Source: Eledone cirrhosa
Lineage: Eukaryota
Reading direction: 5' to 3'
Assembly (NCBI GenBank): GCA_964016885.1
Contig: OZ024742.1
Coordinates: forward strand, 282,596,001-282,660,000
Length of the DNA: 64,000 nt
Positions within the stretch are counted from its first letter, which is position 1; each line of letters begins with the position of its first letter. Of the stretch, positions 1,672 to 53,763 are shown piece after piece. Under the pieces are notes generated by a model. The model was not told the DNA's origin and made no database searches. It saw only the letters and a program-made list of their open reading frames with translations. The position numbers were made by a program, and so were the translations under genes.

Positions 1672-1710
<39 letters not shown>

Positions 1711-1822
1711 TAAAAGGAATTTCAACTTTGCCTGATTTACTCGTTTTATTTACAATCCTTTAAAATTTATAATGGTATTAGAATGAAATAGTATGGTAGA
1801 ATATTAAATGTTAAGTGTTAAT

Positions 1823-1861
1823 TGAACAAGTACTTTCATGCTTTCGCAATCTTCAGGTTCA
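1823..1861 (-). ncRNA. Type I hammerhead ribozyme (inverted copy)
   Basis: Exact reverse complement of 1935-1973. Confidence 0.85.
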
Positions 1862-1934
1862 TAATGTGTGGTGACAGTCAAGTTTGAAATTTTCAACAGT
1901 TGAAAATTGCAAACTTGACTGTCACCACACATTA

Positions 1935-1973
1935 TGAACCTGAAGATTGCGAAAGCATGAAAGTACTTGTTCA
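1935..1973 (+). ncRNA. Type I hammerhead ribozyme (minimal)
   Basis: TGAAC CTGAAGA T TGC GAAA GCA T GAAA G TA C T T GTTCA: 5-bp stem I, core CUGAAGA/GAAA, palindromic stem III AGTACT, CUU site. Confidence 0.85.
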
Positions 1974-2290
1974 ATTAACACTTAACATTTAATATTCTAC
2001 CATACTATTTCATTCTAATACCATTATAAATTTTAAAGGATTGTAAATAAAACGAGTAAATCAGACAAAGTTGGAATTCCTTTTATTAATATAATCTTCT
2101 ATACACAATCATACACACCCGTGTATATTTATCTATCTATATTCTTACATATATATATATATTTATTTATTACTTCGTTTTTGAATTTGTTTTGCAAGAT
2201 TTCTTATCTGAAAACGTGTGTTGAAACAGATATTGTTATACTTTGGGAGGGTGCGTGTGTTTTTATTGGCAGCATGACCCTCCCAAAGTA

Positions 2291-3510: not shown

Positions 3511-3859
3511 TGTGTGATAAAGATGGTTAGTTAGACTTATGGATATGTAGTACTGTATTTCTACTTCGATCTTGGACTTGTAAAATACTTCAGGATAGGT
3601 TTTAGATAATGGGGCCCAGAATGGAGAAGCAGTACTGTCGGTATAGGTCGAAACCATGTGAGTCCATTTCGACAGCTGATGACCACGGTGTTTCTATTCT
3701 TGTAACCATTTTGTGTTGTGTATATACAATCTCGTTCCATATTCGTCCATATATATATATATATATATATAAACTATAATAAAGGGAGAGCGCGGAATTG
3801 CGTACGGTTTATAATTTTTTATCCCATTAGTAAAATAAGTTGGATTACTTTGAATAAAT

Positions 3860-4042
3860 AATTGTTTCTACTTTTGGCACAAGGCCATCAAATACCCAGT
3901 ACATTACTGGTACTTTATTTTATCGACCCCGTAAGGATGAAAAGCAAAGTTAACCTCGGCGGGATTTGAACTCAGAATGGCAAGAGCCGTAACTCTATGC
4001 GTCAAAGCATGGCGTCCGACCCTCTACCGATACTGCCAATTT
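3860..4042 (-). mobile_element. tRNA-derived SINE (family A)
   Basis: Pol III A box (TGGCAGTATCGG) and B box (GAGTTCAAATCC), conserved CTTTCATCC..GGGGTCGATAAAATAAAGTACCAG body, 15-bp TSD CTTTGAATAAATAAT (3848-3862 / 4043-4057). Confidence 0.9.
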
Positions 4043-5086: not shown

Positions 5087-5147
<61 letters not shown>

Positions 5148-5208
5148 GCATCTATATATGTATATATAATTTACACGCATATATATATATATTTATATAT
5201 ATACAAGC

Positions 5209-5297
<89 letters not shown>

Positions 5298-5317
5298 TGT
5301 ATATATATATATATATA

Positions 5318-5800
5318 AAACAGCTCGAATTAAGCCGTACAATGTTCGGCAACCATCGTTGCCCTTTTGTTCAACACTGACAAAGGAACGATGAACTAGT
5401 TTCTAGCTTGTTAGCTGTCATCAGCACCGTATACCTTCCTGTCAATCGATTGAACGTTTGAAAGTATATACTTTCCTTATGCATATTAACGGCTGAGCAG
5501 CCTAATTTGCATATCGAGTGAGTTAATCGGCCGGGCGCACCCAAAACGATAAATGGAAAAAATGAAATTTCATTTCTCACTCTTAATACGGCTGATACTT
5601 GAATATAAGTATGTATACGTACATACATATATGTATACAGACGTACAGTAGTATGTATATACATACATACATGCACATATATATATATATGTACGTATGG
5701 ATTCACCGAACATTTATTATAATGTTCGGTTTCTTTCGGGCTGTTTGTTTACAAACAGCCCGAACATTATAATAAATGTTCGGTAAACCCATACGTACAT
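5318..5800 (-). mobile_element. HHR element, same family as 39628-40690, with a terminal fold-back at about 5690-5800
   Basis: Colinear with the roughly 430-bp unit at 39.6-40.7 kb. Left end abuts a TA tract. Confidence 0.8.
5388..5430 (-). ncRNA. Type I hammerhead ribozyme
   Basis: ACGGTG CTGATGA C AGCT AACA AGCT A GAAA C TA G T T CATCGT. Differences from the 40425 copy keep the stems paired. Confidence 0.85.
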
Positions 5801-5804
5801 TATG

Positions 5805-5947
5805 CCAGTGCATTACTGGTACTTTATTTCATCGACCCCGTAAGGATGAAAGGCAAAGTTAACCTCGGCAGGATTTGAACTCAGACCATAAAGGGCCGTA
5901 ACTCTTTGCTGCAAAGCATGGCATCCGACCCTCTACCGATACTGCTA
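5805..5947 (-). mobile_element. tRNA-derived SINE (family A), 3'-truncated
   Basis: Matches family A head and body. Confidence 0.85.
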
Positions 5948-6333
5948 TCACTCCTTCAAAATGGCTACCGATACTGCCAAAATGTGGGACACATACACTG
6001 CTCTACGGCAGCTACAACTTCGATTCATATATATATATATATATATATATATGCGGCTACAACTTCGATTTATATATATATATATACGCACATACATATG
6101 TTGCAGTAATTATAGCATTCGATAACTGCATAACTGCATATAGAGAGGTAGAGAAGTATATATATATATATATATACATATGTGTATGTGTGTGTGTGCG
6201 TGCGTATGTTAAATATATATGCATATGTACGTACTTTTTTCGCACATATATACGCATATGTATACGTGCATATATACATTCACACACATTTATATATATA
6301 TACATACGTACATAAATAAATATACACACACAC

Positions 6334-6973: not shown

Positions 6974-7016
<43 letters not shown>

Positions 7017-7047
7017 TACATATATACATATATATATATATAAATAT

Positions 7048-7079
<32 letters not shown>

Positions 7080-7239
7080 TTGGATTTAATGCTCTGAAAT
7101 AGCGATATATATGTGAAGACAAACATAGAATATTCGAAAATATTCTGTATGTTTATAATAAACATTTTGAAGACCCAATCGCTATAGAATAGAATACGTC
7201 ACGTATTACAATTTGAGATTCTCGATAAAAGCAAGGGAA

Positions 7240-7282
7240 GTAACCTACGCGTTTCATTCTTATTAGAAATCATCAGGATTAC
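7240..7282 (-). ncRNA. Type I hammerhead ribozyme
   Basis: Reverse complement of 7736-7778. Confidence 0.9.
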
Positions 7283-7551
7283 ATATCCAATGCTTTTATC
7301 GAGAACGACACAGCTAGAGACTTATAGAATACTTAGCTGTGTACAGGAACTGGTTTGAAAGAGCGGTAGCCGGTCCGGCAGAAATTAGAATTTGGATTTA
7401 ATGCTCTGAAATAGCGATATATATGTGAAGACAAACATAGAATATTCGAAAATATTCTGTATGTTTATAATAAACATTTTGAAGACCCAATCGCTATAGA
7501 ATAGAATACGTCACGTATTACAATTTGAGATTCTCGATAAAAGCAAGGGAA

Positions 7552-7594
7552 GTAACCTACGCGTTTCATTCTTATTAGAAATCATCAGGATTAC
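7552..7594 (-). ncRNA. Type I hammerhead ribozyme
   Basis: Reverse complement of 7736-7778. Confidence 0.9.
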
Positions 7595-7735
7595 ATATTC
7601 AATGATTTTATCGAGAACGACACAGCTAGAGACTTATAGAATACTTAGCTGTGTACAGGGACTGGTTTGAAAGAGACACAGCTAAGTATTCTATAAGTCT
7701 CTAGCTGTGTCGTTCTCGATAAAAGCATTGGATAT

Positions 7736-7778
7736 GTAATCCTGATGATTTCTAATAAGAATGAAACGCGTAGGTTAC
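7736..7778 (+). ncRNA. Type I hammerhead ribozyme (minimal, dimer-type)
   Basis: GTAATC CTGATGA T TTCT AATA AGAA T GAAA C GC G T A GGTTAC: 6-bp stem I, palindromic stem III ACGCGT, GUA site. Confidence 0.9.
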
Positions 7779-8047
7779 TTCCCTTGCTTTTATCGAGAAT
7801 CTCAAATTGTAATACGTGACGTATTCTATTCTATAGCGATTGGGTCTTCAAAATGTTTATTATAAACATACAGAATATTTTCGAATATTCTATGTTTGTC
7901 TTCACATATATATCGCTATTTCAGAGCATTAAATCCAAATTCTAATTTCTGCCGGACCGGCTACCGCTCTTTCAAACCAGTTCCTGTACACAGCTAAGTA
8001 TTCTATAAGTCTCTAGCTGTGTCGTTCTCGATGAAAGCATTGGATAT

Positions 8048-8090
8048 GTAATCCTGATGATTTCTAATAAGAATGAAACGCGTAGGTTAC
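8048..8090 (+). ncRNA. Type I hammerhead ribozyme
   Basis: Identical to 7736-7778, 312 bp downstream. Confidence 0.9.
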
Positions 8091-8211
8091 TTCCCTTGCT
8101 TTTATCGAGAATCTCAAATTGTAATACGTGACGTATTCTATTCTATAGCGATTGGGTCTTCAAAATGTTTATTATAAACATACAGAATATTTTCGAATAT
8201 TCTATGTTTGT

Positions 8212-8278
<67 letters not shown>

Positions 8279-8406
8279 CATATATATATATAAATATACA
8301 CACACACACATATATATATATATATTTCTCCCTCTCTTTAACTCTCACTCTCACACTCTCTCATTATTTCTGTTTATCCATCTCTCTATCTCTTTCTCAC
8401 AGACAT

Positions 8407-9625: not shown

Positions 9626-9712
9626 AACTAATATATATGATTTCTTTATTTGAACACCAGGTGAATTAGATAATTATTGTTCTCATAACTAAAAATGTCA
9701 ATTTAATTAATT

Positions 9713-9900
9713 AATTGTTTCTACTTTTGGCACAAGGCCAGCAATTATACAGTGTATTACTGGTACTTTATTTTATCGACCCCGTAAGGATGAAAGGCAA
9801 AGTTAACCTCTGCGGGATTTGAACTCAGAATGGCAAGGGCCGCAACTCTATGCGTCAAAGCGTGGCGTCCGACCCTCTACCGATACTGCCAATCCACCAC
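9713..9900 (-). mobile_element. tRNA-derived SINE (family A)
   Basis: Full-length match to family A. Confidence 0.9.
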
Positions 9901-9909
9901 CTAATATTA

Positions 9910-10095
9910 GGTGGATTGGCAGTATCGGTCGAGGGTCGGACGCTATGCTTTGCTGCATAGTTACGTCCTTTTACGGACTGAGTTCAAACCCCGCCGAGGT
10001 TAACTTTGCCTTTCATCCTTACGAGGTCAATAAAATAAAGTACCAGTAATGCGCTGGGTAATTGCTGGCCTTGTGCCAAAAGTAGAAACAATTAA
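9910..10095 (+). mobile_element. tRNA-derived SINE (family A), head-to-head with the previous copy
   Basis: Full-length match to family A. Confidence 0.9.
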
Positions 10096-10304
10096 TTAAA
10101 AGCGATCTGCAGTGGCGAGTGGAAGAGATATTTAAGAGTAGAGTGTGACGTCATGTAATATTATGTAGAGCTTATATGAAGTAATATATTAGATTTCTGT
10201 GAACACAACGTTGTATTACATCTATTAGAAGATGACTTGAACAAATACGGTGGGTGAGTGTTGTATGGAAACGCAATAGAAATGTGGATATCTGATGTAA
10301 TGAA

Positions 10305-12110: not shown

Positions 12111-12843
12111 CACACTCATTACTTATTAATACAAATCTTATTTGCTTTCACTTATCTGTTAATTACTAGATATTAATTTAATAATTACTAAAAGTCTGCC
12201 GTTTAATTATCTGTCCAAAAGACAGACACAAGACTTCATTTCAAGAAAATTTGTCGCTGATAAGTAAAACATGTTAAACAGTTGAGTCTAAATGTTGGCA
12301 GAACGTTAAAAAATAATGAGAAACTGGTGTCACTCTATTAATTATATCCAAATAATTACTTATTGCATTCACTTTGGTTATTATAGCAATATGAAAGGCG
12401 GTGGATTGACAGAATCTTTAGAGCGTTGGTCAAAATGCTTTGCGGCATTTAGTTATGGTCCATTACACTCTGACTTCAAATCCCGTCGAGGTCAACTCTG
12501 CCTTTAATTTTTTCAAATACTAAGATCGATGAAATCGATTTATCAGTGCTGGCCTTAGCTTTAAATTATAAAACGTTATTTTTGTAATGTGAAGGCGCGT
12601 AGCTTAGTGATTAGGGCGTTAGGCTCACGATCATAAGGTTGTGAGTTCAATTCCCAGATGCGTTGTGTTTTTATGAAATGGTTTCGCACTGGTGTGCTGC
12701 AAGGGGCATCCTGATATATTGCGGGTGATTTAGATATTAATTTACGGCTTAAAATATGTATATTAATGCCCAGTATATCTCAGTTTCTTACGGCATAATT
12801 TGAATATCTAATTTAAATTAACTATCAGCATAAGCAGTAATAT

Positions 12844-13027
12844 AACTGTTTCTACTTTTGGCTCAAGGCCAGCAATTATCCCAGTGTATTACTGGTACTT
12901 TATTTTATCGACCCCGTAAGGATGAAAGGTAAAGTTAACCTCGGCGGGATTTGAACTCAGACCGTAAAGGGCCGTTTCTTTATGCTGCAAATCATGGCGT
13001 CCGACCCTCTACCGATACTGCCAATCC
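12844..13027 (-). mobile_element. tRNA-derived SINE (family A)
   Basis: Full length, 15-bp TSD CATAAGCAGTAATAT (12829-12843 / 13027-13041). Confidence 0.9.
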
Positions 13028-16588: not shown

Positions 16589-17022
16589 GGTGAGGTGGAT
16601 TGGCAGTGTCGGTAGAGCGTTGGATAATATGTTTTCTGGCACAGAGTTATAGCCCTTTATGATCTGAGTTGAAATCGGGCTGGAGTTAGCTTTGCCTTTC
16701 ATCATTACGGGGTCGATAAAATAAAGCACCAGTAATGCGCTGGGGTAATTGCTGGCCTTGTGCGTGCCAAAAGTAGAAACAATTATAAACCGGGTGAGGG
16801 CGATGGATTGGCAGTGTCGGTAGAGCGTCGAATAATATGCTTTGCGACATAGAGTTATGGCCCTTTATGCTCTGAGTTCAAATCACACCGAGCTTAGCTT
16901 TACCTTTCATCCTTACGGGGTCGATAAAATAAAATACCAGTAATGCACTGAGGTCGAATTCATCGACTTTCCCCACCCCACCCCTAAAATTGTTGGCCTT
17001 GTGTTTAAATTAGAAACCATTA
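16589..17022 (+). mobile_element. Two tandem family A SINEs (16589-16786 and 16793-17022)
   Basis: Both show the head, body and CCTTGTG..TAGAAAC tail. Confidence 0.85.
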
Positions 17023-17300
17023 TAGAGCAGGTGGAAGAGAGATGATCTGTATCTAAGCAACAATGGTAACAAGGGATTAACGAGAAACCATATATATGAT
17101 AGCTACTTGCTATAAGTAGCCGACATATCTCCTTTTTATATTATGTCTGAAATAAAAATTTAAATAAAGCCGGTATGGGTACGACTGGAACGCCTTTGAT
17201 CATAAGTATTCGTGCGTCCTTCTAGGAATAGCAGGTCACCTGCTGCCGAAACAAGACTGAACCTGTAGCAAAATAAAAAGTACAGCAACAAGGTGTTATT

Positions 17301-17461
17301 AATTGTTTCTATTTTAGGCACAAGGCCAGCAAATACCTAGTACATTACTGGTACTTTATTTTATCGACCCCGTAAGGATGAAAGGCAAAGTTAACCTCGG
17401 CGGGATTTGAACTCAGATCATAAAGGGACATAACTCTATGCTTCAAAGCATGGTGTCCGAC
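17301..17461 (-). mobile_element. Family A SINE, 5'-truncated
   Basis: Body and tail match family A. Confidence 0.85.
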
Positions 17462-17710
17462 TAATGGTTTATCTTCTCACCAAATCGCTTTCTCCCCCCC
17501 CCCTCACACACACACTTTTCTCTCTCTCTCTTCTCTCCCTCTCTCTTACCCACACGTTCTCTTTCTCTCTCTGGCTTCCTCTTTCTCTCTCTCACCCCTC
17601 TTTCGCACTCTCTCTCCCTCACGCTCTCACCTACGCACATTCTCTCTCACCTACTCTTTCGCATTCTCTCTCCCTCGCTTTCTCTCCAACTCACCCCAAC
17701 ACCACACAAA

Positions 17711-21851: not shown

Positions 21852-24456
21852 ATCCATTTCCTCAGCCACTGCCTCCGCCTCCACCTTATCCCCCTTGGCT
21901 TCCGGCTACACTTCCACCCCTCCCCCGCTGCTTCCCCCTCCGCGCAACGTATCCTCACCCGATCCTCACGCCTTCTGATGCGCAACTCCATCCGCGCCTC
22001 CCGTTCCACCCTCCGCCTACTTGACCACCAACTGACCCCCACCCTCCTCCGCCTTTACTCCACCTGCCACCCCCTCCTCGCCTAAGCCATTCTCTCCTTC
22101 ATGCACAACCTCAACCACAACCTCTTCTCGTTCCTCAGCTCCACCAAAGCCCGCAAGCTACACTCACTCCTCCCAACCCCCCACATCCACCACCACCCGC
22201 CCATCCCCATACGCCCACCACTCCCCACCTCTCCCCCGACCCCCACCCCTTGTTGTCACCATACCCCCTGACCTCCCCCTCTCCGCACCTGAGCGCTCAC
22301 TCCTTAGTAGAGGCCTTCGCTCCATACCCCACACTCCGCACAGCGACGAGTTCCGCACCCGAACGGAAGTCGAGCGATTCGTGCGACGCACGAAGCTACA
22401 GGCACATTTCAGCCGAACGCCACCGGCTCCGGACGCCCCAGACCCGTTTCTCGCCCTGGGCCGACGACCATCTTCTTGGACGCCGGCCCCAGGGCAATTT
22501 AGCACCCTGGACGCCTTCGTCGATGCCAGCCGTAGCGCAGTAAATCGTTTCGACTTCCGCCACCGTTCCAAACGGCACAACATCTCACGGGGCGAACTCC
22601 TCGCTCTCCGCTCCCTCCGTAGCCGAGATGACATCGTCATCAAACCGGCGGACAAGGCAGGCGCCGTGGTGGTATGGCGCGCGGACCTCTACACGGCCGA
22701 AGCCCTCAGGCAGCTCTGTAACCCCCTCTTTTACCGCCCTCTACCCTCCGATCCCACCCCCCTCTACCAACAACAAGTCTCCTCCACCATCAAAGACCTT
22801 ATCGCCTCCTCCCTCCTCCCCCCCCCCCCCCACCGCTTCCCACCTCATCGTCCGCACCCCCCGCACCCCCACCATCTACTTCCTTCCCAAACTCCACAAA
22901 TCCGACAACCCCGGCCGCCCCATCGTCTCCGCTTGCAACTGCCCCACCGAACTCATCTCCGCCTTTCTCGACTCCCTCCTCGCCCCCCTTGTCACCACTC
23001 TCCCCTCGCACATCTCTGACACCAACCACGCCCTGCGCCTTTTCGACTCCTTCACCTACCTACACGGCCCTCAGCCATTCCTCTTCACCCTAGACATCAA
23101 GTCCCTCTATACCGTCATCCCCCACGCTGACGGCCTTCGTGCCCTCAAACACTACCTCGACCTTCGCCCCTCCCCCATTCCCTCCACCCCCACCCTCCTT
23201 CGCCTCGCCGAGCTGGTCCTCACCCTAAATTGTTTCTCCTTCTCGGGTGAGTTTTACCAACAGGTCACGGGGGTAGCCATGGGCACAAGAATGGGCCCGA
23301 ACTATGTCAACCTTTTTGTTGGCCATGTTGAGGCCCAAATCTTTGCCCAGTACACCGGCCCCACGCCCGAACTGTACGGTCGTTACATTGACGACTGTAT
23401 CGGAGCCACGACCCTCACCCGAGTACAGCTCGACTCCTTTCTCTCCTTCTTCTGCTCCTTCCACCCCTCCCTCCACTTCACCACCTCTATCTCCACCACC
23501 CACGTCCACTTCTTGGACATCTCCGTCGCCTTCGACCCCTCCCACCACTCCCTCGTCACCTCTGCCTTCTTCAAACCCACCGACTCCCACTCTTACCTCG
23601 ACTTCACCTCTTCCCACCCCACCCACACTAAACTCTCCATTCCCTACTTCCAACTTCTCAGGATCCGCCGCCTCTGTAGCTGAGATGCTGACTTCGAGTC
23701 CCAGGCCCTTTCCCTAGTCAGCCATTTCATCCGCAGAGGTTACCTCCCCTCTCTCGTCCACACCGCTCTCACCCGCGCCCGTGCTATCCCCCGCTCCACC
23801 ACCCTTACCCCACGCCACCGCACACCCACCCACCGTCTCCCCTTCCCCATCACCTACCACCCCTCCACCGCACCCCTCCACCGCACCATCCGCCGCCTCT
23901 TCCGACACCTCCAGTCCGACCCCTCCACCTCCCACATCTTCCCAACCCAACCACTCTCCTCCTTCAAACGCGCACGCAATCTCCGCACCCTCCTCGTCCA
24001 CAGCTCCCTACCCCCCAACCCACGCTCCGTTCCCCCCCCGGTTCCTTCCCCTGATCTAGGCCCCGCTGCAACACCTGTCCCCACATCACCAACACCACCA
24101 CCTTCCAGGGTCCCAACGGCCACCCTCTCTCGGTCCGGCATGCCTTCCGCTGCACCTCCTCCAACCTAGTCTACGGACTTCGTTGCACGAGGTGCAGCGC
24201 GACTTATGTCGGACAGACGGGACGTCGCCTGGCGGACCGAGTCACGGAGCACCTCCGAGACATTCGTCTCGGGGGCAGTTCCCCCATCGCCCGCCACTTT
24301 GGTGGCCCTGGACACTCCGCACGCCATCTCACAGTCTGTGGCCTACTCCAGTGCCACGGAACACCCGCCCATCGCCTTATGGTCGAACAACGTACTATCT
24401 TCATCTTACAGACCCACACTCTCCCCGGCCTGAACTCCCCACCCTTATTCCTTTAG
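21852..24456 (+). pseudogene. PLE reverse transcriptase / GIY-YIG endonuclease ORF, disrupted
   Basis: Motifs IKPADKAG, YFLPKLHK..PGRPIVS, LDIKSLYT, GVAMGTRMGP, RYIDD, FLDI, KPTDSHSYL, RCNTC and NLVY..C..C..YVGQTGRRLADRVTEH..GLN. Frameshifts at C runs near 22820-22831 and 24032-24039 (plus one in 22170-22250). In-frame stops at 22083, 23681 and 24052. Confidence 0.93.
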
Positions 24457-24940
24457 CGTTCGACCGCCCCCCTCCCCCCACACTTATCCCCCACTAACAC
24501 CACTTACACACCCCTCCTTTTCACCGCCCACCCCACACTAACAATACTAACACCTCCACTCCACCCCTCATCTGACCACCCTTCCCCAACTAACATACTA
24601 ACATCCCTTCCCTCCCCTCTTCTCCTCCTCCCCCTCCTTATCACACGCACACACGCACCCACTTACACCACCCATCCCCACGCAACTAACATCACTAACA
24701 CCCTCCAACCCCACGCACACGTACCCACACACCCTCGTACACCACCAACTCTACACACCCTACCCCCACTAACCCCCACTCACACCTGCATTCCACCCCT
24801 CCCTACCTCCCGTATATTAACACCCACTAACACCTCTTCACCAAACTACACACACACCAGTACACCACACTCCCTCCATAGAACCACACACACTCTTCTC
24901 TCCCCGCTCCACACTCACTCATCCCACTAACACCCCACTA

Positions 24941-24985
<45 letters not shown>

Positions 24986-25804
24986 CCTCACTCCAACTCT
25001 CACACCTACCCATCCTCGCCTCCCTACCATTCCGCCGACTGCTGCTATGCCCTTCCGACCACTGTCTCAGCACCAACTGACCACAGCACTTCCACTGCTG
25101 ACCACTTCCTGTTGCGCGCGCACCCCACATCTCTCCTCTTCCGACCACCGCTTCTTGGATTACCCACACGCGTTTTGACTTCTCACCAAAATCTCCATAT
25201 ATCCGTGTAACTTACCACTTTTCAACCACCCTCTTACACCACCACCTATATAACTCACCCACACACACACACACCCCAAAACAAATTTTTTTATCCACAC
25301 GCCACCCACACCCACAACACGCTTAAACCACACACGTGCTTCCCACCACATATTTACACCCTCAGCCCCCTGATTCCTCTCCCCCCACCCCCCTATCCAC
25401 ACACGCACAGACCCTCCGACCCACAAAAACACCCCCCACACACACCTTCCTGAACATGCAACCCCGTTCTTCCCCAACCCTCACTTTCACATACACACAC
25501 ACACACACACACACCGCACACCTAACCACACACACCACCTTCAGCCCTCCCCGCTCGGACACCCCGTCTCCCTCTCCCCACTCCACCCGCCACCACCTCT
25601 ACTCACCCCACACCCTTCCACCACCTGTTTACCCCCCTTTTAATTTCAGTTTATTTTTAAATGTTCTCATTCCTTGTATTTTGATCATGCTTTATTTTTA
25701 TTTATTATTTATTATATTTTTGTCTTTATTTGTTAATTTTTCATTCGCACCGTTTCCTTTCGCTATATGTCTCTCCACCACTCCCCTACACACCTTTTGA
25801 ACTC

Positions 25805-25840
25805 TCACCTGAAGAAGGGCTTATGCCCGAAACGTCGTCC
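25805..25840 (+). ncRNA. Minimal hammerhead ribozyme in the PLE 3' terminal repeat
   Basis: CTGAAGA A GGGC TTAT GCCC GAAAC GTC, palindromic stem III ACGT, stem I only about 2 bp. Confidence 0.75.
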
Positions 25841-25927
25841 CCCACCTACCCCCCACTCTCCTGAGCGTGAATTTAATAAACATTTGTCGTACTGCCTCTC
25901 TGTTCTGTCCCTGTTCAATTTTTCATT

Positions 25928-29084: not shown

Positions 29085-29426
29085 AACCAAAGATTAGTAT
29101 GGTTCGTTGATTACAATATTACAATAGCACTCAACAGTCGATTTTCCTGGAGTTTTTAATATTATTCAAAATGTTAACAAATGAAAAATATTCTCTTTAT
29201 TATATATATTTCAAAGGTACTATGGTGTTTAAGTACATTTTCATCAGATAAAATATATGATTTGATATGTGACATACCGCTACGGTTTTGATTATTCAAT
29301 TCCAGTATTGATTATTCAATTCCAATACTGGAATTGAATAATCAAAACCGTAGCGGTATATCACATATCAAATCATATATTTTGTCTGATAAAAACGTAC
29401 TTAAACACCATAGTACCTTTGAAATA
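29085..29426 (-). mobile_element. Fold-back HHR element (family C)
   Basis: Arms at about 29205-29310 and 29323-29426. Tail with AGCACTCAACAG on the left. Confidence 0.8.
29195..29253 (-). ncRNA. Type I hammerhead ribozyme (family C)
   Basis: TTTTAT CTGATGA AAATGTACT..AGTACCTTT GAAA TATATA T A ATAAAG. Confidence 0.75.
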
Positions 29427-30584
29427 TCTATATATATAAAATCGAGGATGTGTGTGTGCGTGTGTGTCTCTGTGGACAACTTTGGACAGCTAAGGCTTTC
29501 ACAATTCCCAACCGAATTTGACCAAATTTTCTGTGCACGTTGCACCTGTCGCTAAGATGGTCACATCACAAAAACTTTTCAAATCGACCCACGTTGAGCA
29601 ATAAAAAAATCGATAGCAAAATTATCTATATATATAAAAGCGAGGATGTGTGTACAGAGTATGAAAGACCACGGGGGTCAGAATCAGTAGTAGAGGAAAC
29701 ACTGAGAGAGTGAGAGAGCGAGTGAGAGAGAGAGAGGGAGAGAAGATATGGTATAGAGGGAGAGGGGGAGATATAGTACAGAGGGAGAGAGAGGAGATAT
29801 GGTACAGAGGGAAGGAGAGGAGATATGGTACAGGGAGAGAGGGAGAGAGAAGATACGGTACAGAGGGAGAGAGAGAGGATATATGGTATAAAGTGAGAGA
29901 GAGGAGATATGGTATAAAGAGAGTGAGAGAGGGGAGATATGGTACAGAGAGACAGAGGGAGAAAGAGGAGATATGGTACAAAGAGAGAGAGAAAGAGAGA
30001 GATGAGATATGGTACAGAGAGAGAGAAAGAGGGAGATATGATACAAAGAGAGAGAGAGAGAGAGTGAGAGAGCGCGAGAGCGAGAGAAGAGATATGGTAT
30101 AAAAAGAGACAGAGAGGGAGATGAGATACAAAGAGAGAGAAAGAAGGAGATATGATACAAAGAGAGAAAGAAAGAGAGGAGTGATACAAAAGAGTGAGAG
30201 AGGAAAGCCATAATTAATAGAGGGGGGGGGCAGATGAAATATAAAGAGAGGGAAAAAGAGACAGAGAGAGGGGGGAGAGAAAGAGAGGAGAAATGACACA
30301 AACAAAGAGAGATGGGGAAAATAAGATATAAAAAGAGAGAAAGAGAGAGAGAAAATAACAGAAAGAAAGAGACGGAGTAAGTAAGAGTGGCGGTAAGAGG
30401 TAGGAAGATACGTTGAAGGGGAGGAGAAAAAAGTAGAGGAGTGAGGAGATGAAAAAATTATGGAAGCCAGTTAGGACAAGTAATATTACAAGTGTATTGT
30501 ATACAAATCTGGGTTGAAAAGTTCTTTGCCGGACTATGAAAGAGTGATGCTAGAGCTGCGAAATCTATATATATAAAAGCGAAG

Positions 30585-34009: not shown

Positions 34010-35388
34010 TATAAAGCTGACGGCCGTATGTAGGTAACAAACTTTCCGCCAAATGGCTGGACCAAACAGCACCAAATTTGCACCATAGATGTAACTTTTT
34101 CAAGTAAAAAAGTGAAGCTATTTTTGTCTACTGAATTTTAAAGACATTTAAATATTCATTTCTTTAAAATTTCAAATGTCAACACTTCCGGTTATACGTC
34201 ATTCCTTACTTTTTCTTATGACGTCGCACAACATTCACCTCTTTTTCTTATAATATGTCTCTGTATGTCTGACTGTTTGCATTAGATAACGTTTTTCAAA
34301 ATATTTACTTCTGCGTTCACAGACTGATTTTTTTAGTTAAAGGTGAAAGCAGCGATTCTTTGCTTAAACTTTAACGTTATTTTAATATATATATTCGTGT
34401 ACAGATATTTTTGCATACACAAACAAAAACCTATTTATTTCACGAAAGCACAGACGGCTTATCGTCATTGTTACTGTTCGAGGTTAGAGGACCACAGTCT
34501 TTCCAAGATCTGAGAACCATAAATGGCCATTAATGTTCCACTTACCGTTTGGCTTGCCAGATGCGTGATATGTTACACGATGACAGCCATTGGCACCTCA
34601 CCCTGCAAAAAGCAGCAACTGCTAAAGTCCCTTCTCAGCTACGAAAACTTTTTGCTATTATGCTGCACAACTGCGATCTCGCCGACCCTCTCGCAATGTG
34701 GAACAACCACCGCGAAAGTCTAACTGAGGACATCCTCCACCACACACGCAGACACAATCCGAACGTAACATACGATGTCGTTTTCAATGAGGCGCTCATT
34801 TGTCTTGAAAACAGTGTCCTGGAGATTGGTGGTAGGCCTCTAAGTCACTACAGCTTACCTGCTCCTGACAGGAGTATCCAGAGGTCAACGTCTACAGAGC
34901 TTCTCCGCGAGACGAGCTACGAAATCAGTGATTCTCCCATGGTCAATTGTATGTAGGATGCTCTAGGTTGAGCTCACCAAACAATCTCTTCATCTTTGCT
35001 CGGGGAGGGGGCAACAAAAAATATTGTATACTCTGAGGCTCTAACAATGTAATTTAAATATTTTCTGTTACTTGGAATTTCCATTATGGTTGTACAAATT
35101 ATTGTTTGTTAAAAAATGTGTTCTCTGTTCAGCCTTTATTGTTGTAACTATCAATTTTCTTTAACGCACTGGCTACTGAACTGGGGAGTCCTAAAAACTA
35201 TTCAAACCCAACATCAGGGCACGTTATCCCCCCCCCCCCCCACACACACAAACTTGCTGACTTGAGAGGGCGTGCGGTATCTTTGCACTGGAGTGGAGGG
35301 GGGCATTCCTGAAAAGATGAAATGCCGGTAAACCTAGCCGGACGCCAGCCGAACGCCAGCCGGGCGGGCCAGCCGGGCGGGCCAGCTA

Positions 35389-39463: not shown

Positions 39464-39627
39464 TTGTCAGTGTTTACGCTTGTGTTAGTGTTTATATCCC
39501 GCAACATAGCTAAAGTATGTTCTAGACGTGCTAAAAAATAAGTACTGAAGTCGATAATACCGATTAAATCCCTTTAAGGCGATGCCCCAGTATGGCTTCA
39601 GTTGAATGAGTGTAACCAGTACTGGAA

Positions 39628-40686
39628 TACAGACGTACAGTAGTATGTATATATATACATACAGGCACAAATATATATATGCACGTATCGGTTTACCGAA
39701 CATTTATTATAATGCTCGGTTTGTTTGTTTGTAAACAAACAAACAGCCCAAATTACGCCGTACAGTGTTTAGGAAACCACGTCACCTTTTTGTTCAACAC
39801 TAGTTTCAAGCTTATTAGCTATCGTCAGCATCGTATACCTTCCTGCCAGATGGTTGAACGTCTGAAAGTATATACTTTCCTTATGCATATTAACGGCTGA
39901 GCAGCCTAATTTGCATATCGAGTGAGTTCAGTCGGCCGGGCACACCGAAAACGATAAATGGAATAGAATGAAACGAGATTTCATTTCTCACTTTTAGTAC
40001 GGCACTTACTTAAATGCAAGTATGCATGTATGTATACGTACATTCATATATGTATACAGACGTACAGTAGCATATATATATGCACGTATCGGTTTACAAA
40101 CAAACAAACCGAGCATTATAATAAATGTTCGGTAAACCGATACGTGCATATATATATATGTGTGCATTTATGTATATATATACATACTACTGTATACATC
40201 TGTATACATATATGTATGTACGTATACATACATGCATACTTGAATTTAAGTAAGTGCCGTACTAAGAGTGAGAAATGAAATTTCGTTTTATTCTATTCCA
40301 TTTATTGTTTTCGGTGTGCCCGGCCGACTGAACTCACTCGATATGCAAATTAGGCTGCTCAGCCGTTAATATGCACAAGGAAAGTATATACTTTCAGACG
40401 TTCAACCATCTGGCAGGAAGGTATACGATGCTGACGATAGCTAATAAGCTTGAAACTAGTACATCGTTCCTGTGTCAGTGTTGAACAAAATGGTGACGTG
40501 GTTGCCTAAACACTGTACGGCGTAATTCGGGCTGTTTGTTTGTTTACAAACAAACAAACCGAGCATTATAATAAATGTTCGGTAAACCGATACGTGCATA
40601 TATATATGTGTGCATGTATGTATATATATACATACTACTGTACGTCTGTATCCATATATGTATGTACGTATACATACATGCATACT

Positions 40687-40690
<4 letters not shown>
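39628..40690. mobile_element. Retrozyme-like tandem plus inverted array of an HHR unit of about 430 bp
   Basis: Just over one unit (39628-40095) followed by about 1.3 units in the opposite orientation. Homologous to 5318-5800. Confidence 0.85.
40425..40467 (+). ncRNA. Type I hammerhead ribozyme
   Basis: ACGATG CTGACGA T AGCT AATA AGCT T GAAA C TA G T A CATCGT: 6-bp stem I, palindromic stem III ACTAGT, GUA site. Confidence 0.9.
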
Positions 40691-40767
<77 letters not shown>

Positions 40768-40810
40768 TGATATTAAATAAATGGAAACTATATTTATAAA
40801 ACCATATTTA

Positions 40811-40868
40811 TTTTATTATATATATTTCAAGGGTACCAAACACTTTGGTACGCTTTCTTCAGATAAAA
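40811..40868 (-). ncRNA. Type I hammerhead ribozyme (family C)
   Basis: TTTTAT CTGAAGA AAG C GTACCAAA gtg TTTGGTAC C CTT GAAA TATATA T A ATAAAA. Fold-back at 40914-41010. Confidence 0.85.
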
Positions 40869-41229
40869 TACAAAGTTTGTTTTATAAATAGAAAGACATG
40901 CCCAGGAAAATCATACCTTATCAGTTGAATATTCCCTGGATAGTGGAAATGTATAATGGATTTATATTTATACATTTCCACTATCCAGGGAATATTCAAC
41001 TGATAAGGTAAGAAAATTACATTAAAAATTACATCAAAAATTTATCACATGTGATAATATGTGATAAATTTTTGATGTAATTTTTTATGAATTTTATGAC
41101 ATTATGCGCGTCATGTATTGTCTCTTTTTCAATATAGCGCGGGCCACGGGACCCCCTCCTGGTCTTTTAACCTTGTTCTAGTGACGCAGCTTGATAGAGC
41201 ATGCAACTATTGATATAGTCTTGTTTATA

Positions 41230-44549: not shown

Positions 44550-46885
44550 TCCACACCACCAACACCACCTCTATTACTACCACCATCACCACTATCACTA
44601 CTACTACTACTACTACTACTACTATTACTACTACTACCACTACTAGCACCACCACCGCCGCCACCACTATCACACAACATCACTACCACTATCATCTACC
44701 ACCACTACCACCACCACCATTAACAACGCCACCACCAACACCAACGAAACAACCACCACTATCAACCACCACCATCAACCACCACCATTCCCACCAGCAA
44801 CATCAACACTAACATCAACACTACCACCAATACTATCATCCCACCACCACCACCACCAGTATCAACACTATCCCCAATACTATCACCCCACCACACCACC
44901 ATCATGACCACCACCACTGCCACTATCACACACCACTACCTCTACCACCGATACTATCACCCCACCACCACCAGTATCAACCAATATTATCACCTCACTA
45001 CCACCAATACTATCACCCCCACCACCACCAGCAACAACACTACCACCAATACTATCACGCCACCATCACCAGTATCAACACTACCACCAATTCTATCACC
45101 CCACCACCACCACCAGCATCAACACTACCACCAATACTATCACCCCACCACTACCACCATCACCACCACCATCACAACCTCCACCACCAACACCACCATC
45201 AGTATCAACACTACCACCAATACTATCACGCCACCACCACCAGCATCAACACTACCACCAATTCTATCACCCCACCACTACCACCATCACCACCACCATC
45301 ACAACCTCCACCATCAACACCACCATCAGTATCAACACTACCACCAATACTATCACCCCACCACCACCACCAGCATCAACACTACCACCAATACTATCAC
45401 CCCACCACTACCACCATCACCACCACCATCACAACCTCCACCATCAACACCACCATCAGCATCAACACTACCACCAATACTATCACCCCACCACCACCAC
45501 CAGCATCAACACTACCACCAATTCTATCACCCCACCACTACCACCATCACCACCACCATCACAACCTCCACCATCAACACCACCATCAGTATCAACACTA
45601 CCACCAATACTATCACCCCACCACCACCACCAGCATCAACACTACCACCAATACTATCACCCCACCACTACCACCATCACCACCACCATCACAACCTCCA
45701 CCATCAACACCACCATCAGTATCAACACTACCACCAATACTATCACCCCACCACCACCACCAGCATCAACACTACCACCAATACTATCACCCCACCACTA
45801 CCACCATCACCACCACCATCACAACCTCCACCATCAACACCACCATCAGTATCAACACTACCACCAATACTATCACGCCACCACCACCAGCATCAACACT
45901 ACCACCAATACTATCACCCCACCACTACCACCATCACCACTACCATCACAACCTCCACCATCAACACCACCATCAGTATCAACACTACCACCAATACTAT
46001 CACCCCACCACTACCACCATCACCACCACCATCACAACCTCCACCATCAACACCACCATCAGCATCAACACTACCACCAATACTATCACCCCACCACCAC
46101 CACCAGCATCAACACTACCACCAATACTATCACCCCACCACTACCACCATCACCACCACCATCACAACCTCCACCATCAACACCACCATCAGTATCAACA
46201 CTACCACCAATACTATCACCCCACCACCACCACCAGCATCAACACTACCACCAATACTATCACCCCACCACTACCACCATCACCACTACCATCACAACCT
46301 CCACTATCAAGACCACTATCAGTATCAACACTACCACCAATACTATCACGCCACCACCACCAGCATCAACACTACCACCAATACTATCACTCCACTACCA
46401 CCACCACCACCAACAACAATAACACCAACGATACAACGAACAATATAAACCACCACACCCCACCACCACCACACCAGCATCAACACTACTACCAATACTA
46501 TCACCCCACCACCACCACCACCAGTATCAACACTACCACTACCACCACCACAGCCACCAGTATCAACACTACCACAACTACAACCACCAGTATCAACACT
46601 ACCACCCGACCACTACCACCACCACACTACCACCCCACCACCACCACCACCACCACCACTACCACCATTACCACCCCATCACGACGACCACCACCACCAC
46701 CAGTACCACCACCACCACCACTACCACCACCACCACCACTACCACCACCACCACCCCATCACGACGACGACCACCACCACCAGTATCAACACAACCACCC
46801 CACCACTACCACCACCATCACCACCACCACCACCACCACCACCACCACTACCACCTCACCACTACCCCCCCACCCCCACCACGAT
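44550..46885. repeat. CAC-rich minisatellite with a 130-bp period in its core
   Basis: ACAACCTCCA recurs at 45301, 45431, 45561, 45691 and 45821. Confidence 0.9.
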
Positions 46886-47069: not shown

Positions 47070-49140
47070 TGATGGTGGTGGTGGTGGTGGTGTGGTGGTG
47101 GTGTGGTGGGTGGTGGTGGTGTGGTGGGTGGTGGTGGTGTGGTGGGTGGTGGTGGTGAGTGGTGGTGGTGATGAGTGATGATAGTGGTGGTAGTGGTGGT
47201 GGGTGATGATGGTGGTGGTGGTGGTGGTGGTGGTGGGTGGTAATAGTGCTGGTGTTGGTTGTGGTGGGTGATAGTGATGGTGGTGATGGTGTGGTGATAG
47301 TGGTGGTGATGGTGTGGGGATAGTGGTGGTGGTGGTGGTGGGTGTGGTGGGTGATGGTTGTGGTGTGGTGTGGTGGGTGATAGTGGTCGTGATGGTGGTG
47401 GTGGTGGTGGTGGTAGTGGTGGTGGTGGTGGGTGATAGTGGTGGTGATGGTGTGGTGGTAGTGGTGGGTGATGGTTGTGGTGTGGTGTGGTGGGTGATAG
47501 TGGTGGTGGTGGTGGTGGTGGGTGATGGTGGTGGTAGTGGTGGTGGTGGTGGGTGATAGTGGTGGTGATGGTGTGGTGGTAGTGGTGGGTGATGGTTGTG
47601 GTAGTGGTGGTGGTGGTGGGTCATGGTTGGGGTGTGGTGGGTGAAGGTGGTGGTAGTGGTGGTGGTGGTAGTGGTGGTGGTGGTGGGTGATAGTGGTGGT
47701 GATGGTGTGGTGGTAGTGGTGGGTGATGGTTGTGGTAGTGGTGATGGTGGTGGTGTGTGATAATGGTGGTGGATGATGGTGGTTGTAGTGGTGGGTGATG
47801 GTGGTGGTGGTGGTGGAGGTGGTGGTAGTGGTGGTGGTGGTGGTGGAGGTTGTGATAGTGGTGGGTGATAGCAGCTGTGGTGGCGTTGGTGGTGGTGGTA
47901 GGTAATGCTGCTGTAGTTGTTGGTCGTGTTGGTGATGGCGTCGTTGGTTATGATAGTGGTAGTATGGTGGTGTTAGTGTTGGTGATGGTGTCGTTGGTTA
48001 TGATAGTGGTAGTATGGTGGTGTTAGTGTTGGTGATGGCGTCGTTGGTTATGATAGTGGTAGTATGGTGGTGTTAGTGTTGGTGATGGTGTCGTTGGTTA
48101 TGATAGTGGTAGTATGGTGGTGTTAGTGTTGGTGATGGTGTCGTTGGTTATGATAGTGGTAGTATGGTGGTGTTAGTGTTGGTGATGGTGCTGTTGGTTA
48201 TGATAGTGGTAGTATGGTGGTGTTAGTGTTGGTAATGGCGTCGTTGGTTATGATAGTGGTAGTATGGTGGTGTTAGTGTTGGTGATGGTGCTGTTGGTTA
48301 TGATAGTGGTAGTATGGTGGTGTTAGTGTTGGTGATGGCGTCGTTGGTTATGATAGTGGTAGTATGGTGGTGTTAGTGTTGGTGATGGTGTCGTTGGTTA
48401 TGATAGTGGTAGTATGGTGGTGTTAGTGTTGGTAATGGCGTCGTTGGTTATGATAGTGGTAGTATGGTGGTGTTAGTGTTGGTGATGGTGTCGTTGGTTA
48501 TGATAGTGGTAGTATGGTGGTGTTAGTGTTGGTGATGGTGCTGTTGGTTATGATAGTGGTAGTATGGTGGTGTTAGTGTTGGTGATGGTGTCGTTGGTTA
48601 TGATAGTGGTAGTATGGTGGTGTTAGTGTTGGTGATGGTGTCGTTGGTTATGATAGTGGTAGTATGGTGGTGTTAGTGTTGGTGATGGCGTCGTTGGTTA
48701 TGATAGTGGTAGTATGGTGGTGTTAGTGTTGGTGATGGTGCTGTTGGTTATGATAGTGGTAGTATGGTGGTGTTAGTGTTGGTGATGGTGTCGTTGGTTA
48801 TGATAGTGGTAGTATGGTGGTGTTAGTGTTGGTGATGGTGTCGTTGGTTATGATAGTGGTAGTATGGTGGTGTTAGTGTTGGTGATGGTGTCGTTGGTTA
48901 TGATAGTGGTAGTATGGTGGTGTTAGTGTTGGTGATGGTGCTGTTGGTTATGATAGTGGTAGTATGGTGGTGTTAGTGTTGGTGATGGTGTCGTTGGTTA
49001 TGATAGTGGTAGTATGGTGGTGTTAGTGTTGGTGATGGTGTCGTTGGTTATGATAGTGGTAGTATGGTGGTGTTAGTGTTGGTGATGGTGTCGTTGGTTA
49101 TGATAGTGGTAGTATGGTGGTGTTAGTGTTGGTGATGCTA
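47070..49140. repeat. (GGT)n-rich tract followed by a 50-bp minisatellite (about 24 copies, 47930-49137)
   Basis: Unit TCGTTGGTTATGATAGTGGTAGTATGGTGGTGTTAGTGTTGGTGATGGYG. Confidence 0.95.
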
Positions 49141-53281: not shown

Positions 53282-53342
<61 letters not shown>

Positions 53343-53375
53343 CAAATGGAAACTATATTTATAAAACCATATTTA

Positions 53376-53436
53376 TTTCATTATACATATTTCAAGGACA
53401 CCAAAGCAAATTATGGTGCGCTTTCATCAGATAAAA
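53376..53436 (-). ncRNA. Type I hammerhead ribozyme (family C)
   Basis: TTTTAT CTGATGA AAG C GCACCA..TGGTGT C CTT GAAA TATGTA T A ATGAAA. Confidence 0.8.
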
Positions 53437-53763
53437 TATAATATAGATCAGTTTTATAAACAAATATTGACATACCCTTAAAGAATGCAACCATGTCGGT
53501 TGGAAGCTCCCGGATAGTTAATATATTGTATTTTTACTCCAAAAATGTGTTGAGTGCTTTATATCAGTTATAAAAATATTTGCTTGTTGTATCCCAACAA
53601 AAAAAAATTAAATATAACTTCTACATATATATATATATATAATATAAGATCAAAAGATGGTTAAAGGAGTCTTATATTATGCATACTCCAGTCCTACAAA
53701 CTGTAGAGTGCTTCTTATCCGATATCTGCATTGCTTTATTGTACTACAATAAAACTTACCTCC

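What the first reader, a model, noticed from the sequence alone, without database searches (positions are those of the whole stretch)
7078..8213. 312-bp HHR monomer in tandem and inverted array: candidate circular-RNA retrozyme
Seen: near-identical 312-bp units, each with one HHR whose stem III (ACGCGT) is too short to close alone but is palindromic. The inversion junction falls at an internal ACACAGCTA..TAGCTGTGT hairpin. Established: such HHRs cleave as dimers, and tandem HHR units release unit-length RNAs that can circularise. Inference: transcription in either direction meets two sense HHRs 312 nt apart and could release a 312-nt monomer. The tandem structure could reflect rolling reverse transcription of a circle.
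Basis: partly seen in the sequence, partly recalled or inferred. Interest (0 to 1): 0.82.

Follow-up and report, generated by a model that had tools for sequence, protein, structure and literature searches.

The report
Retrozyme with Penelope-type insertion scars
A 312-base non-coding repeat carrying a hammerhead ribozyme motif sits here as two back-to-back arms inside a duplicated TA microsatellite, the layout that Penelope-like jumping genes leave, so it is likely a new family of the known animal 'retrozymes', and whether it makes a circular RNA is untested.

Summary
Observation confirmed. There are 3.65 copies of a 312-bp unit: left arm 7078-7675 (sense on -), right arm 7676-8214 (sense on +), 4 differences in 1137 bases. 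They carry four canonical type I hammerhead motifs with palindromic helix III, and the cut sites 7773 and 8085 are correct. With the head-to-head inversion, these match Penelope-like element (PLE) insertions. Contigs show a highly repeated family whose 3' ends recur at about the same two places before (TA)n, and a closed 312-step contig in a second organism. Best reading: a non-autonomous, PLE-mobilised non-LTR retrozyme, a published class. One inference fails: read-through RNA from either flank is predicted to fold into a ~540-bp hairpin that buries both ribozymes, so only a start at the centre could release a monomer. No RNA data were available, so cleavage, expression and circularity are untested. 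The partner PLE is unidentified. The scan has noted similar PLE-scarred repeats in other genomes. New member of a known kind; interest 0.35.

The parts
6977..7077 (.). Left copy of the duplicated target: (TA)n / CA-TA compound tract / (TA)n; edges uncertain inside the TA runs
7078..7675 (-). Left arm, 598 nt = 1.92 units, ribozyme-sense on the - strand
7078..7115 (-). 38-nt one-sided 3' extension ('tail'): unit sequence present at the left end, absent at the right end
7240..7282 (-). Hammerhead motif (C3 7276; predicted new 5' end 7245)
7552..7594 (-). Hammerhead motif (C3 7588; predicted new 5' end 7557)
7655..7675 (-). 21-nt unpaired centre of the inversion; belongs to the left arm; blunt join at 7675/7676
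7676..8214 (+). Right arm, 539 nt = 1.73 units, ribozyme-sense on the + strand
7676..7710 (+). Internal 9-bp-arm hairpin at whose first base the right arm starts (repeated at 7988-8022)
7736..7778 (+). Hammerhead motif (C3 7742; predicted cut 7772/7773); helix I continues as a long predicted stem, about 7712-7800
7773..8084 (+). Predicted 312-nt monomer between two cut sites; non-coding; circular fold -71.2 kcal/mol, z -4.3, 0 of 100 shuffles as stable
8048..8090 (+). Hammerhead motif (C3 8054; predicted cut 8084/8085)
8174..8211 (+). Predicted UUCG-capped hairpin just upstream of the right 3' end (also 7862-7899); candidate signal for the start of reverse transcription
   Evidence: fold of 7855-7945; role inferred
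8215..8325 (.). Right copy of the duplicated target

Best explanation
This is one young insertion of a non-coding, hammerhead-bearing 312-bp repeat, likely a non-autonomous retrozyme copied and inserted by the proteins of a Penelope-like element (PLE). SHOWN: unit, four ribozyme motifs, head-to-head arms, 38-nt one-sided tail, blunt centre, duplicated microsatellite, many relatives ending at about the same two unit positions before (TA)n. INFERRED: the PLE endonuclease nicked opposite strands in two (TA)n runs about 100 bp apart. Each nick primed reverse transcription on unit RNA at one of two start sites 38 nt apart (130 and 168 nt downstream of the cut site, just past a UUCG hairpin). Each cDNA ran 1.7-1.9 units through two ribozyme sites. 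The two were joined in the middle, and gap filling duplicated the target. The template was an uncut multimeric transcript or a ligated 312-nt circle (about even odds; a cut linear monomer could serve only with template jumps). In the family's RNA, neighbouring ribozymes are predicted to cleave as dimers through the ACGCGU palindrome and to give 312-nt monomers that host ligase could circularise, as shown for coral, mussel and axolotl retrozymes. At this locus, read-through RNA is predicted to be a long hairpin, more likely a silencing or editing substrate than a source of monomers.
For: Architecture matches PLE insertions: partial tandem, adjacent inverted 5'-truncated copy and a 30-40-bp tail at one end (PMC8557442; PMC3846280, 31-bp tail, head-to-head most frequent). 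A purified PLE protein nicks and extends both strands at AT-rich DNA and starts at two internal sites that bound the tail (PMC11167929). Target duplication: the 59-nt compound tract of the left flank finds its best non-self match at the right flank (score 50 of 59, next 41, among 1677 windows scored). Contigs: 601 and 490 laid from two runs of one sample. Loose (AT)n ends lie behind 7913 (7 and 9 contigs) and behind 7941 (1 contig), close to this insertion's ends at unit positions 7902 and 7940; 14 of 64 loose-end rows were shown. A second organism has one 342-nt contig on 7705-8032 at 97.6%, i.e. 312+30, the length of a closed cycle if words are 31 long. Ribozyme geometry is the canonical metazoan type I form (helix I 6 bp, II 4 bp, III 1-2 bp palindromic; PMC4209133). 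The U.U base of helix II also occurs in the active axolotl HHR_Amex2 (PMC7229834) and in two other families in this window. The unit is non-coding (3-9 stops per round in all 6 frames). The genome holds an endonuclease-bearing PLE, at 22036-25927, in (TA)n. Three other ribozyme-bearing families here are also head-to-head and beside (TA)n; one has a ~42-nt one-sided extension.
Against: No partner is identified: the unit shows no similarity to the 3' region of the PLE in this window (local score 11, shuffle maximum 14), and no genome is held. Rfam scores are far below the curated cut-off. In the predicted fold of the sense arm the core is paired in an inactive register, 7 kcal/mol from the active one, and a two-strand cofold did not give the double hammerhead. 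Only 1 of 9 Xenopus retrozyme dimers cleaved in vitro (preprint). Ribozyme cleavage was dispensable for PLE insertion in vitro. A ~100-bp duplication is far longer than the 8-10 bp reported for rotifer Penelopes, and microsatellite edges are ambiguous. The contig ends come from one sample, and the 7941 end rests on one contig. No contig joint supported the inversion (table 5), though contigs in this repeat are short.
Confidence: 0.78

Rival explanations
1. The unit is the ordinary pseudo-LTR of an autonomous PLE whose ORF lies elsewhere, and this locus is an ORF-less, 5'-truncated tandem/inverted insertion with no independent life as a retrozyme.
For: Same insertion scars. pLTRs carry hammerheads, and solo or truncated ends are common. 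Xenopus retrozymes are homologous to pLTRs.
Against: Complete units follow each other head to tail with no ORF fragment between them. A closed 312-step contig exists in another organism. The ribozyme is the canonical form, whereas the PLE in this window carries the minimal form with a 2-3-bp helix I. The loose ends shown are mostly TA runs or unit variants (14 of 64 rows seen).
Confidence: 0.13
2. One reading: this locus, transcribed from either side, itself releases 312-nt monomers and circles.
For: Two intact sense motifs lie 312 nt apart on each strand. The circular monomer folds better than 100 of 100 shuffles. An internal start at the centre would avoid the antisense arm.
Against: Read-through in both directions pairs each ribozyme with its antisense copy. 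No pol III A or B box was found, and the only TATA-like match is the internal AT run. Only 60-81 nt of sense sequence precede the first ribozyme.
Confidence: 0.05
3. A DNA-level product: a satellite or foldback repeat made by slippage and inverted duplication, or an assembly chimera, with a vestigial ribozyme.
For: Near-perfect 550-bp inversion. No contig spans the inversion. The flanks are unstable microsatellite.
Against: Asymmetric 21-nt centre, 38-nt tail of unit sequence, flanks duplicated in direct (not mirror) orientation, differences private to single copies, the same geometry in three unrelated ribozyme families, and recurrent 3' ends in other copies.
Confidence: 0.04

Closest known systems
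Metazoan non-LTR retrozymes (coral, mussel ~350-390 bp, axolotl Rtz_331/Rtz_353, newt satellite ~330 bp; Cervera & de la Pena 2020, PMC7229834; Li, Clavereau & Pollet 2026, 10.64898/2026.07.22.740005)
   Same: Unit size within 150-450 bp, GC 35%, one canonical type I hammerhead per tandem unit, short palindromic helix III, U.U base of helix II as in HHR_Amex2, non-coding, self-paired predicted circle, co-occurrence with PLEs.
   Different: Sequence is its own family (no earlier look-alike in this scan). It is inserted as two head-to-head multi-unit arms with a tail and a ~100-bp duplication, features not described for retrozymes in the parts of these two papers that I read. Expression, cleavage and circles are untested here.
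Insertion architecture of endonuclease-bearing Penelope-like elements (Penelope/Poseidon, Neptune, Naiad; PMC3846280, PMC8557442, PMC11167929)
   Same: Partial tandem plus inverted 5'-truncated copy, head-to-head, 30-40-bp one-sided tail, (TA)n target, hammerhead upstream of a stem-loop near the 3' ends.
   Different: No RT/GIY-YIG ORF. Both arms are multimers of the short unit. The ribozyme is canonical, not minimal. The duplication is ~100 bp rather than 8-10 bp.

Membership tests
Type I hammerhead ribozyme | Conserved core CUGANGA / GAAA / UH with three helices in type I order | tested here: met
   4 of 4 copies; 0 hits in 20 shuffles
Type I hammerhead ribozyme | Reaches a curated Rfam hammerhead threshold | tested here: not met
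   No gathering hit; HH9 17.8-20.6 bits against 52. The other hammerhead-like motifs of the window are missed too, so this limits membership of those Rfam families, not the motif call.
Type I hammerhead ribozyme | Self-cleavage at the predicted site (monomer or dimer) | not testable with these tools
   Folding only: palindrome duplex -7.5 kcal/mol; active dimer fold not recovered
Non-LTR retrozyme | At least two consecutive tandem units of 150-450 bp, each with a complete type I hammerhead | tested here: met
   Two motifs 312 nt apart in each arm; criterion
Non-LTR retrozyme | Non-coding, GC below 50%, no LTR structure | tested here: met
   GC 35%; longest ATG frame 34 aa. PBS/PPT were not searched.
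Non-LTR retrozyme | Multi-copy family in the genome | tested here: met
   601 and 490 variant contigs in two runs of organism A. Whether organism A is the window's species is unknown; no genome is held.
Non-LTR retrozyme | Expressed as unit-length linear and circular RNA | not testable with these tools
   No run on record as RNA and only contigs available
PLE-mobilised insertion | Inverted 5'-truncated copy and 30-40-bp one-sided tail | tested here: met
   38-nt tail, head-to-head arms; definition
PLE-mobilised insertion | 3' sequence shared with an autonomous PLE (pLTR homology) | tested here: inconclusive
   No similarity to the single PLE in this window; the rest of the genome could not be searched
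Autonomous PLE | RT plus GIY-YIG ORF between pLTRs | tested here: not met
   No ORF in the element

The most novel reading that the evidence does not exclude
The locus is a fossil of the retrozyme life cycle that has so far only been proposed: a ribozyme-made 312-nt RNA circle reverse-transcribed round for almost two turns from both strands of a target by a PLE protein, with nicks ~100 bp apart in (TA)n. The closed 312-step contig of run X4 would be that circle. This genome (octopus-like by recalled SINE sequence, unverified) would host several such ribozyme families at about one motif per 6 kb.
Probability: 0.3. Interest if true: 0.6.

Novelty: new member of a known kind. Interest (0 to 1): 0.35.

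Why it matters
In the papers read, the link between animal retrozymes and PLE machinery rests on shared ribozymes, co-occurrence and pLTR homology. Here a canonical-hammerhead retrozyme carries the PLE insertion scars themselves (inversion, 38-nt tail, two recurring 3' ends). That gives a young, abundant family in which template (circle or uncut multimer), partner element and the long target duplication can be tested. It does not change the classification of such elements. Long inverted insertions of this kind would also be sources of double-stranded RNA in the host.

Tried and rejected
Own-genome search: no genome held, so copy number, permutation of genomic copies and ORF attachment could not be surveyed. 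Sequencing-run search for RNA: no RNA holder listed, which is no evidence on expression. Exact-pattern scans for the ribozyme core found 0 matches in metagenome contigs and 0 in viral contigs. Earlier findings: none by sequence, none in this genome. Rfam miRNA hits were rejected as matches to the inversion hairpin and TA runs, all far below gathering scores. Simple fold-back self-priming at the internal hairpin was rejected as the whole explanation: it predicts only 1 of the bases after the junction, and the left arm's end does not pair at 7655 (read). Rolling translation was rejected: every frame has stops. No pol III boxes were found (consensus recalled). Absence of common variants in the ribozyme core (0 of 13 listed substitution sites; 2 in loop II) is too weak to count, since about 1.5 would be expected in core and stems. 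One search folded a monomer off by one base; it was redone as a circle. Host identification failed: PLE protein relatives are up to 63% identical, and those named include corals, cartilaginous fish and gastropods; a paper search with a SINE stretch found 0. Run X5 (share 0.24; 5 short contigs) was not used as evidence. PMC9977147 (passages) gave only context on long duplications.

Full report
Setting. The window is AT-rich, microsatellite-dense eukaryotic DNA. No genome is held for it. A repeated SINE-like element (3849-4040, 5758-5949, 9702-9893 and others) resembles octopus SINEs as I recall them. This is recall only: a paper search with a stretch of it found nothing, and protein relatives did not name the host.

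The observation. Tandem Repeats Finder gives period 312 at 7078-7675, and the inverted repeat 7105-7654 / 7676-8225 is 99% complementary with 21 nt between the arms. In unit terms the left arm is 598 nt (1.92 units, sense on -) and the right arm 539 nt (1.73 units, sense on +), reading outward from the centre. The four copies differ at 4 places in 1137 nt, each private to one copy. A descriptor for type I hammerheads (core, helix III, helix I of at least 5 bp; helix II not enforced) found 11 motifs in the window, 4 of them here, and 0 in each of 20 shuffles. Rfam gives nothing at gathering level and weak HH9 matches to all four copies. The unit is non-coding. As a circle it folds at -71.2 kcal/mol, better than 100 of 100 shuffles.

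The right arm's 3' end is at unit position 7902 and the left arm's at 7940, so 38 nt of unit sequence (7078-7115) are present at one end only. A compound microsatellite of about 100-110 bp is repeated in direct orientation on both sides. Its 59-nt distinctive part has its best non-self match at the right flank (50 of 59; next best 41; 1677 windows scored). The centre is asymmetric: the right arm starts at the first base of the internal hairpin, the left arm runs 21 nt further, and the join is blunt. Partial tandems, an adjacent inverted truncated copy, a 30-40-bp tail at one end and (TA)n targets are described as PLE features (PMC8557442, passages; PMC3846280, passages). A purified PLE protein cleaves and extends both strands at AT-rich DNA and starts reverse transcription at two internal sites that bound the tail; ribozyme cleavage was not needed for insertion (PMC11167929, parts 1-2 of 4).

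Other copies. Five runs hold the stretch, none on record as RNA. I laid 4 of the 5 on 7705-8045. Two runs of one sample gave 601 and 490 short variant contigs, with summed depth of 2-7 x 10^5 in most bins (not a copy number). At 9 positions at least 78% of the depth in X1 differs from the window, where all window copies agree. So the insertion comes from one source variant, or organism A is another species. Of 64 loose-end rows 14 were shown. They include (AT)n behind 7913 (7 and 9 contigs), behind 7941 (1), and before 7812 and 7861 (1 each): recurring 3' ends close to the two seen here, and truncated 5' ends, in TA tracts. No strand-change joint was listed. In organism B a single 342-nt contig covers the unit at 97.6%; 342 = 312 + 30 is the length of a closed cycle of 31-letter words (word length taken from the tool text and recall). 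That shows a head-to-tail repeat or a circle but cannot tell which, and the run's kind is unknown.

How it likely works. Inferred: a PLE endonuclease nicked opposite strands in two TA runs about 100 bp apart, and each nick primed cDNA at one of two start sites, 130 and 168 nt downstream of the cut site and just past a predicted UUCG hairpin. The cDNAs ran 1.7-1.9 units and were joined, and fill-in duplicated the target. Each arm crosses two cut sites, so the template was an uncut multimer, a circle, or monomers with template jumps. Both arms end within 21 nt of the same unit position after the same number of rounds. This slightly favours a linear transcript with a fixed start, or a second arm copied from the first, over free rolling. 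Near-identity of the copies fits all of these. For the family, dimeric cleavage and circularisation follow from coral, mussel and axolotl retrozymes (PMC7229834, parts 2-4 of 6; PMC4209133, parts 1-2 of 4). Against this, 8 of 9 Xenopus dimers did not cleave (10.64898/2026.07.22.740005, parts 1-3 of 5), and my folding did not recover the active dimer.

Read-through from either flank makes the antisense arm first. The predicted structures (-949 and -941 kcal/mol) pair every sense ribozyme with its antisense twin. Forcing the ribozyme helices costs 148-158 kcal/mol in the + read-through, against 7 kcal/mol for the sense arm alone. Only a start near the centre could release a monomer, and no pol III boxes were found.

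Context. A decayed RT + GIY-YIG-type element lies at about 22036-25927 in (TA)n. A CxxC motif preceded by an in-frame stop in its linker suggests the Neptune type (motif; no tree built). Its 3' region has a minimal hammerhead (25809) and no similarity to the 312-bp unit, so it shows that such machinery exists in this genome but is not shown to be the partner. Three more non-coding ribozyme families in the window are also head-to-head and beside TA runs.

Comparison and verdict. It meets the structural definition of a non-LTR retrozyme and works, by its scars, like a PLE insertion; expression, cleavage and partner are untested. Searches for 'hammerhead ribozyme'+'octopus', 'octopus'+'Penelope'+'Neptune' and 'cephalopod'+'ribozyme' listed no paper whose title or abstract start concerns such a family (listings only; the library lacks most subscription papers, and Repbase and supplements were not seen, which could hold it). 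Earlier notes of this scan report similar PLE-scarred repeats in other genomes (unchecked). New member of a known kind, interest 0.35.

Noticed in passing
window 1699-2097: Second ribozyme family: 195-bp head-to-head arms, 1 nt apart, hammerhead cores at 1856 (-) and 1940 (+), palindromic helix III AGTACT, U.U base of helix II, beside (TA)n; both 3' ends about 129 nt after the cut site.
   Followed up: partly
window 39627-40693 and 5093-5800: Third family: ~450-bp unit in partial tandem plus inversion, cores at 40431 (+), 39828 (-, with a 19-nt deletion at the cut site) and 5424 (-), helix III ACTAGT; ~42-nt one-sided extension (40652-40693) before (AT)n.
   Followed up: partly
window 29201-29432, 40764-40944, 53340-53518: Fourth family: hammerhead with long helix II and ATATATAT helix III (cores 29247, 40862, 53430, all -); the copy at 29201-29432 is a 93% palindrome; ends abut (TA)n.
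   Followed up: partly
window 22036-25927: Decayed C-rich Penelope-like element (RT, CCHH GIY-YIG-type region, Neptune-like linker) broken by stops and frameshifts, minimal hammerhead at 25809, flanked by (TA)n.
   Followed up: partly
whole window: 11 descriptor-level hammerhead motifs plus the PLE one in 64 kb (about one per 6 kb), 10 of 11 with palindromic helix III, none reaching an Rfam threshold.
   Followed up: partly
window 3849-4040, 5758-5949, 9702-9893, 9959-10099, 12834-13025, 16596-16954, 17290-17481: Abundant ~190-bp SINE-like repeat on both strands, resembling octopus SINEs (recalled, unverified).
   Followed up: no
window 34534-34956 (+): 140-aa frame resembling a Helitron helicase fragment (recalled resemblance; no Pfam hit).
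   Followed up: no
window 44711-46853 and 47926-49137: Two threonine/histidine-like minisatellites on opposite strands (130-bp x 17, 50-bp x 24).
   Followed up: no
run X4, record 17: Single 342-nt contig equal to a closed 312-step cycle of the unit in a second organism; RNA or DNA unknown.
   Followed up: partly
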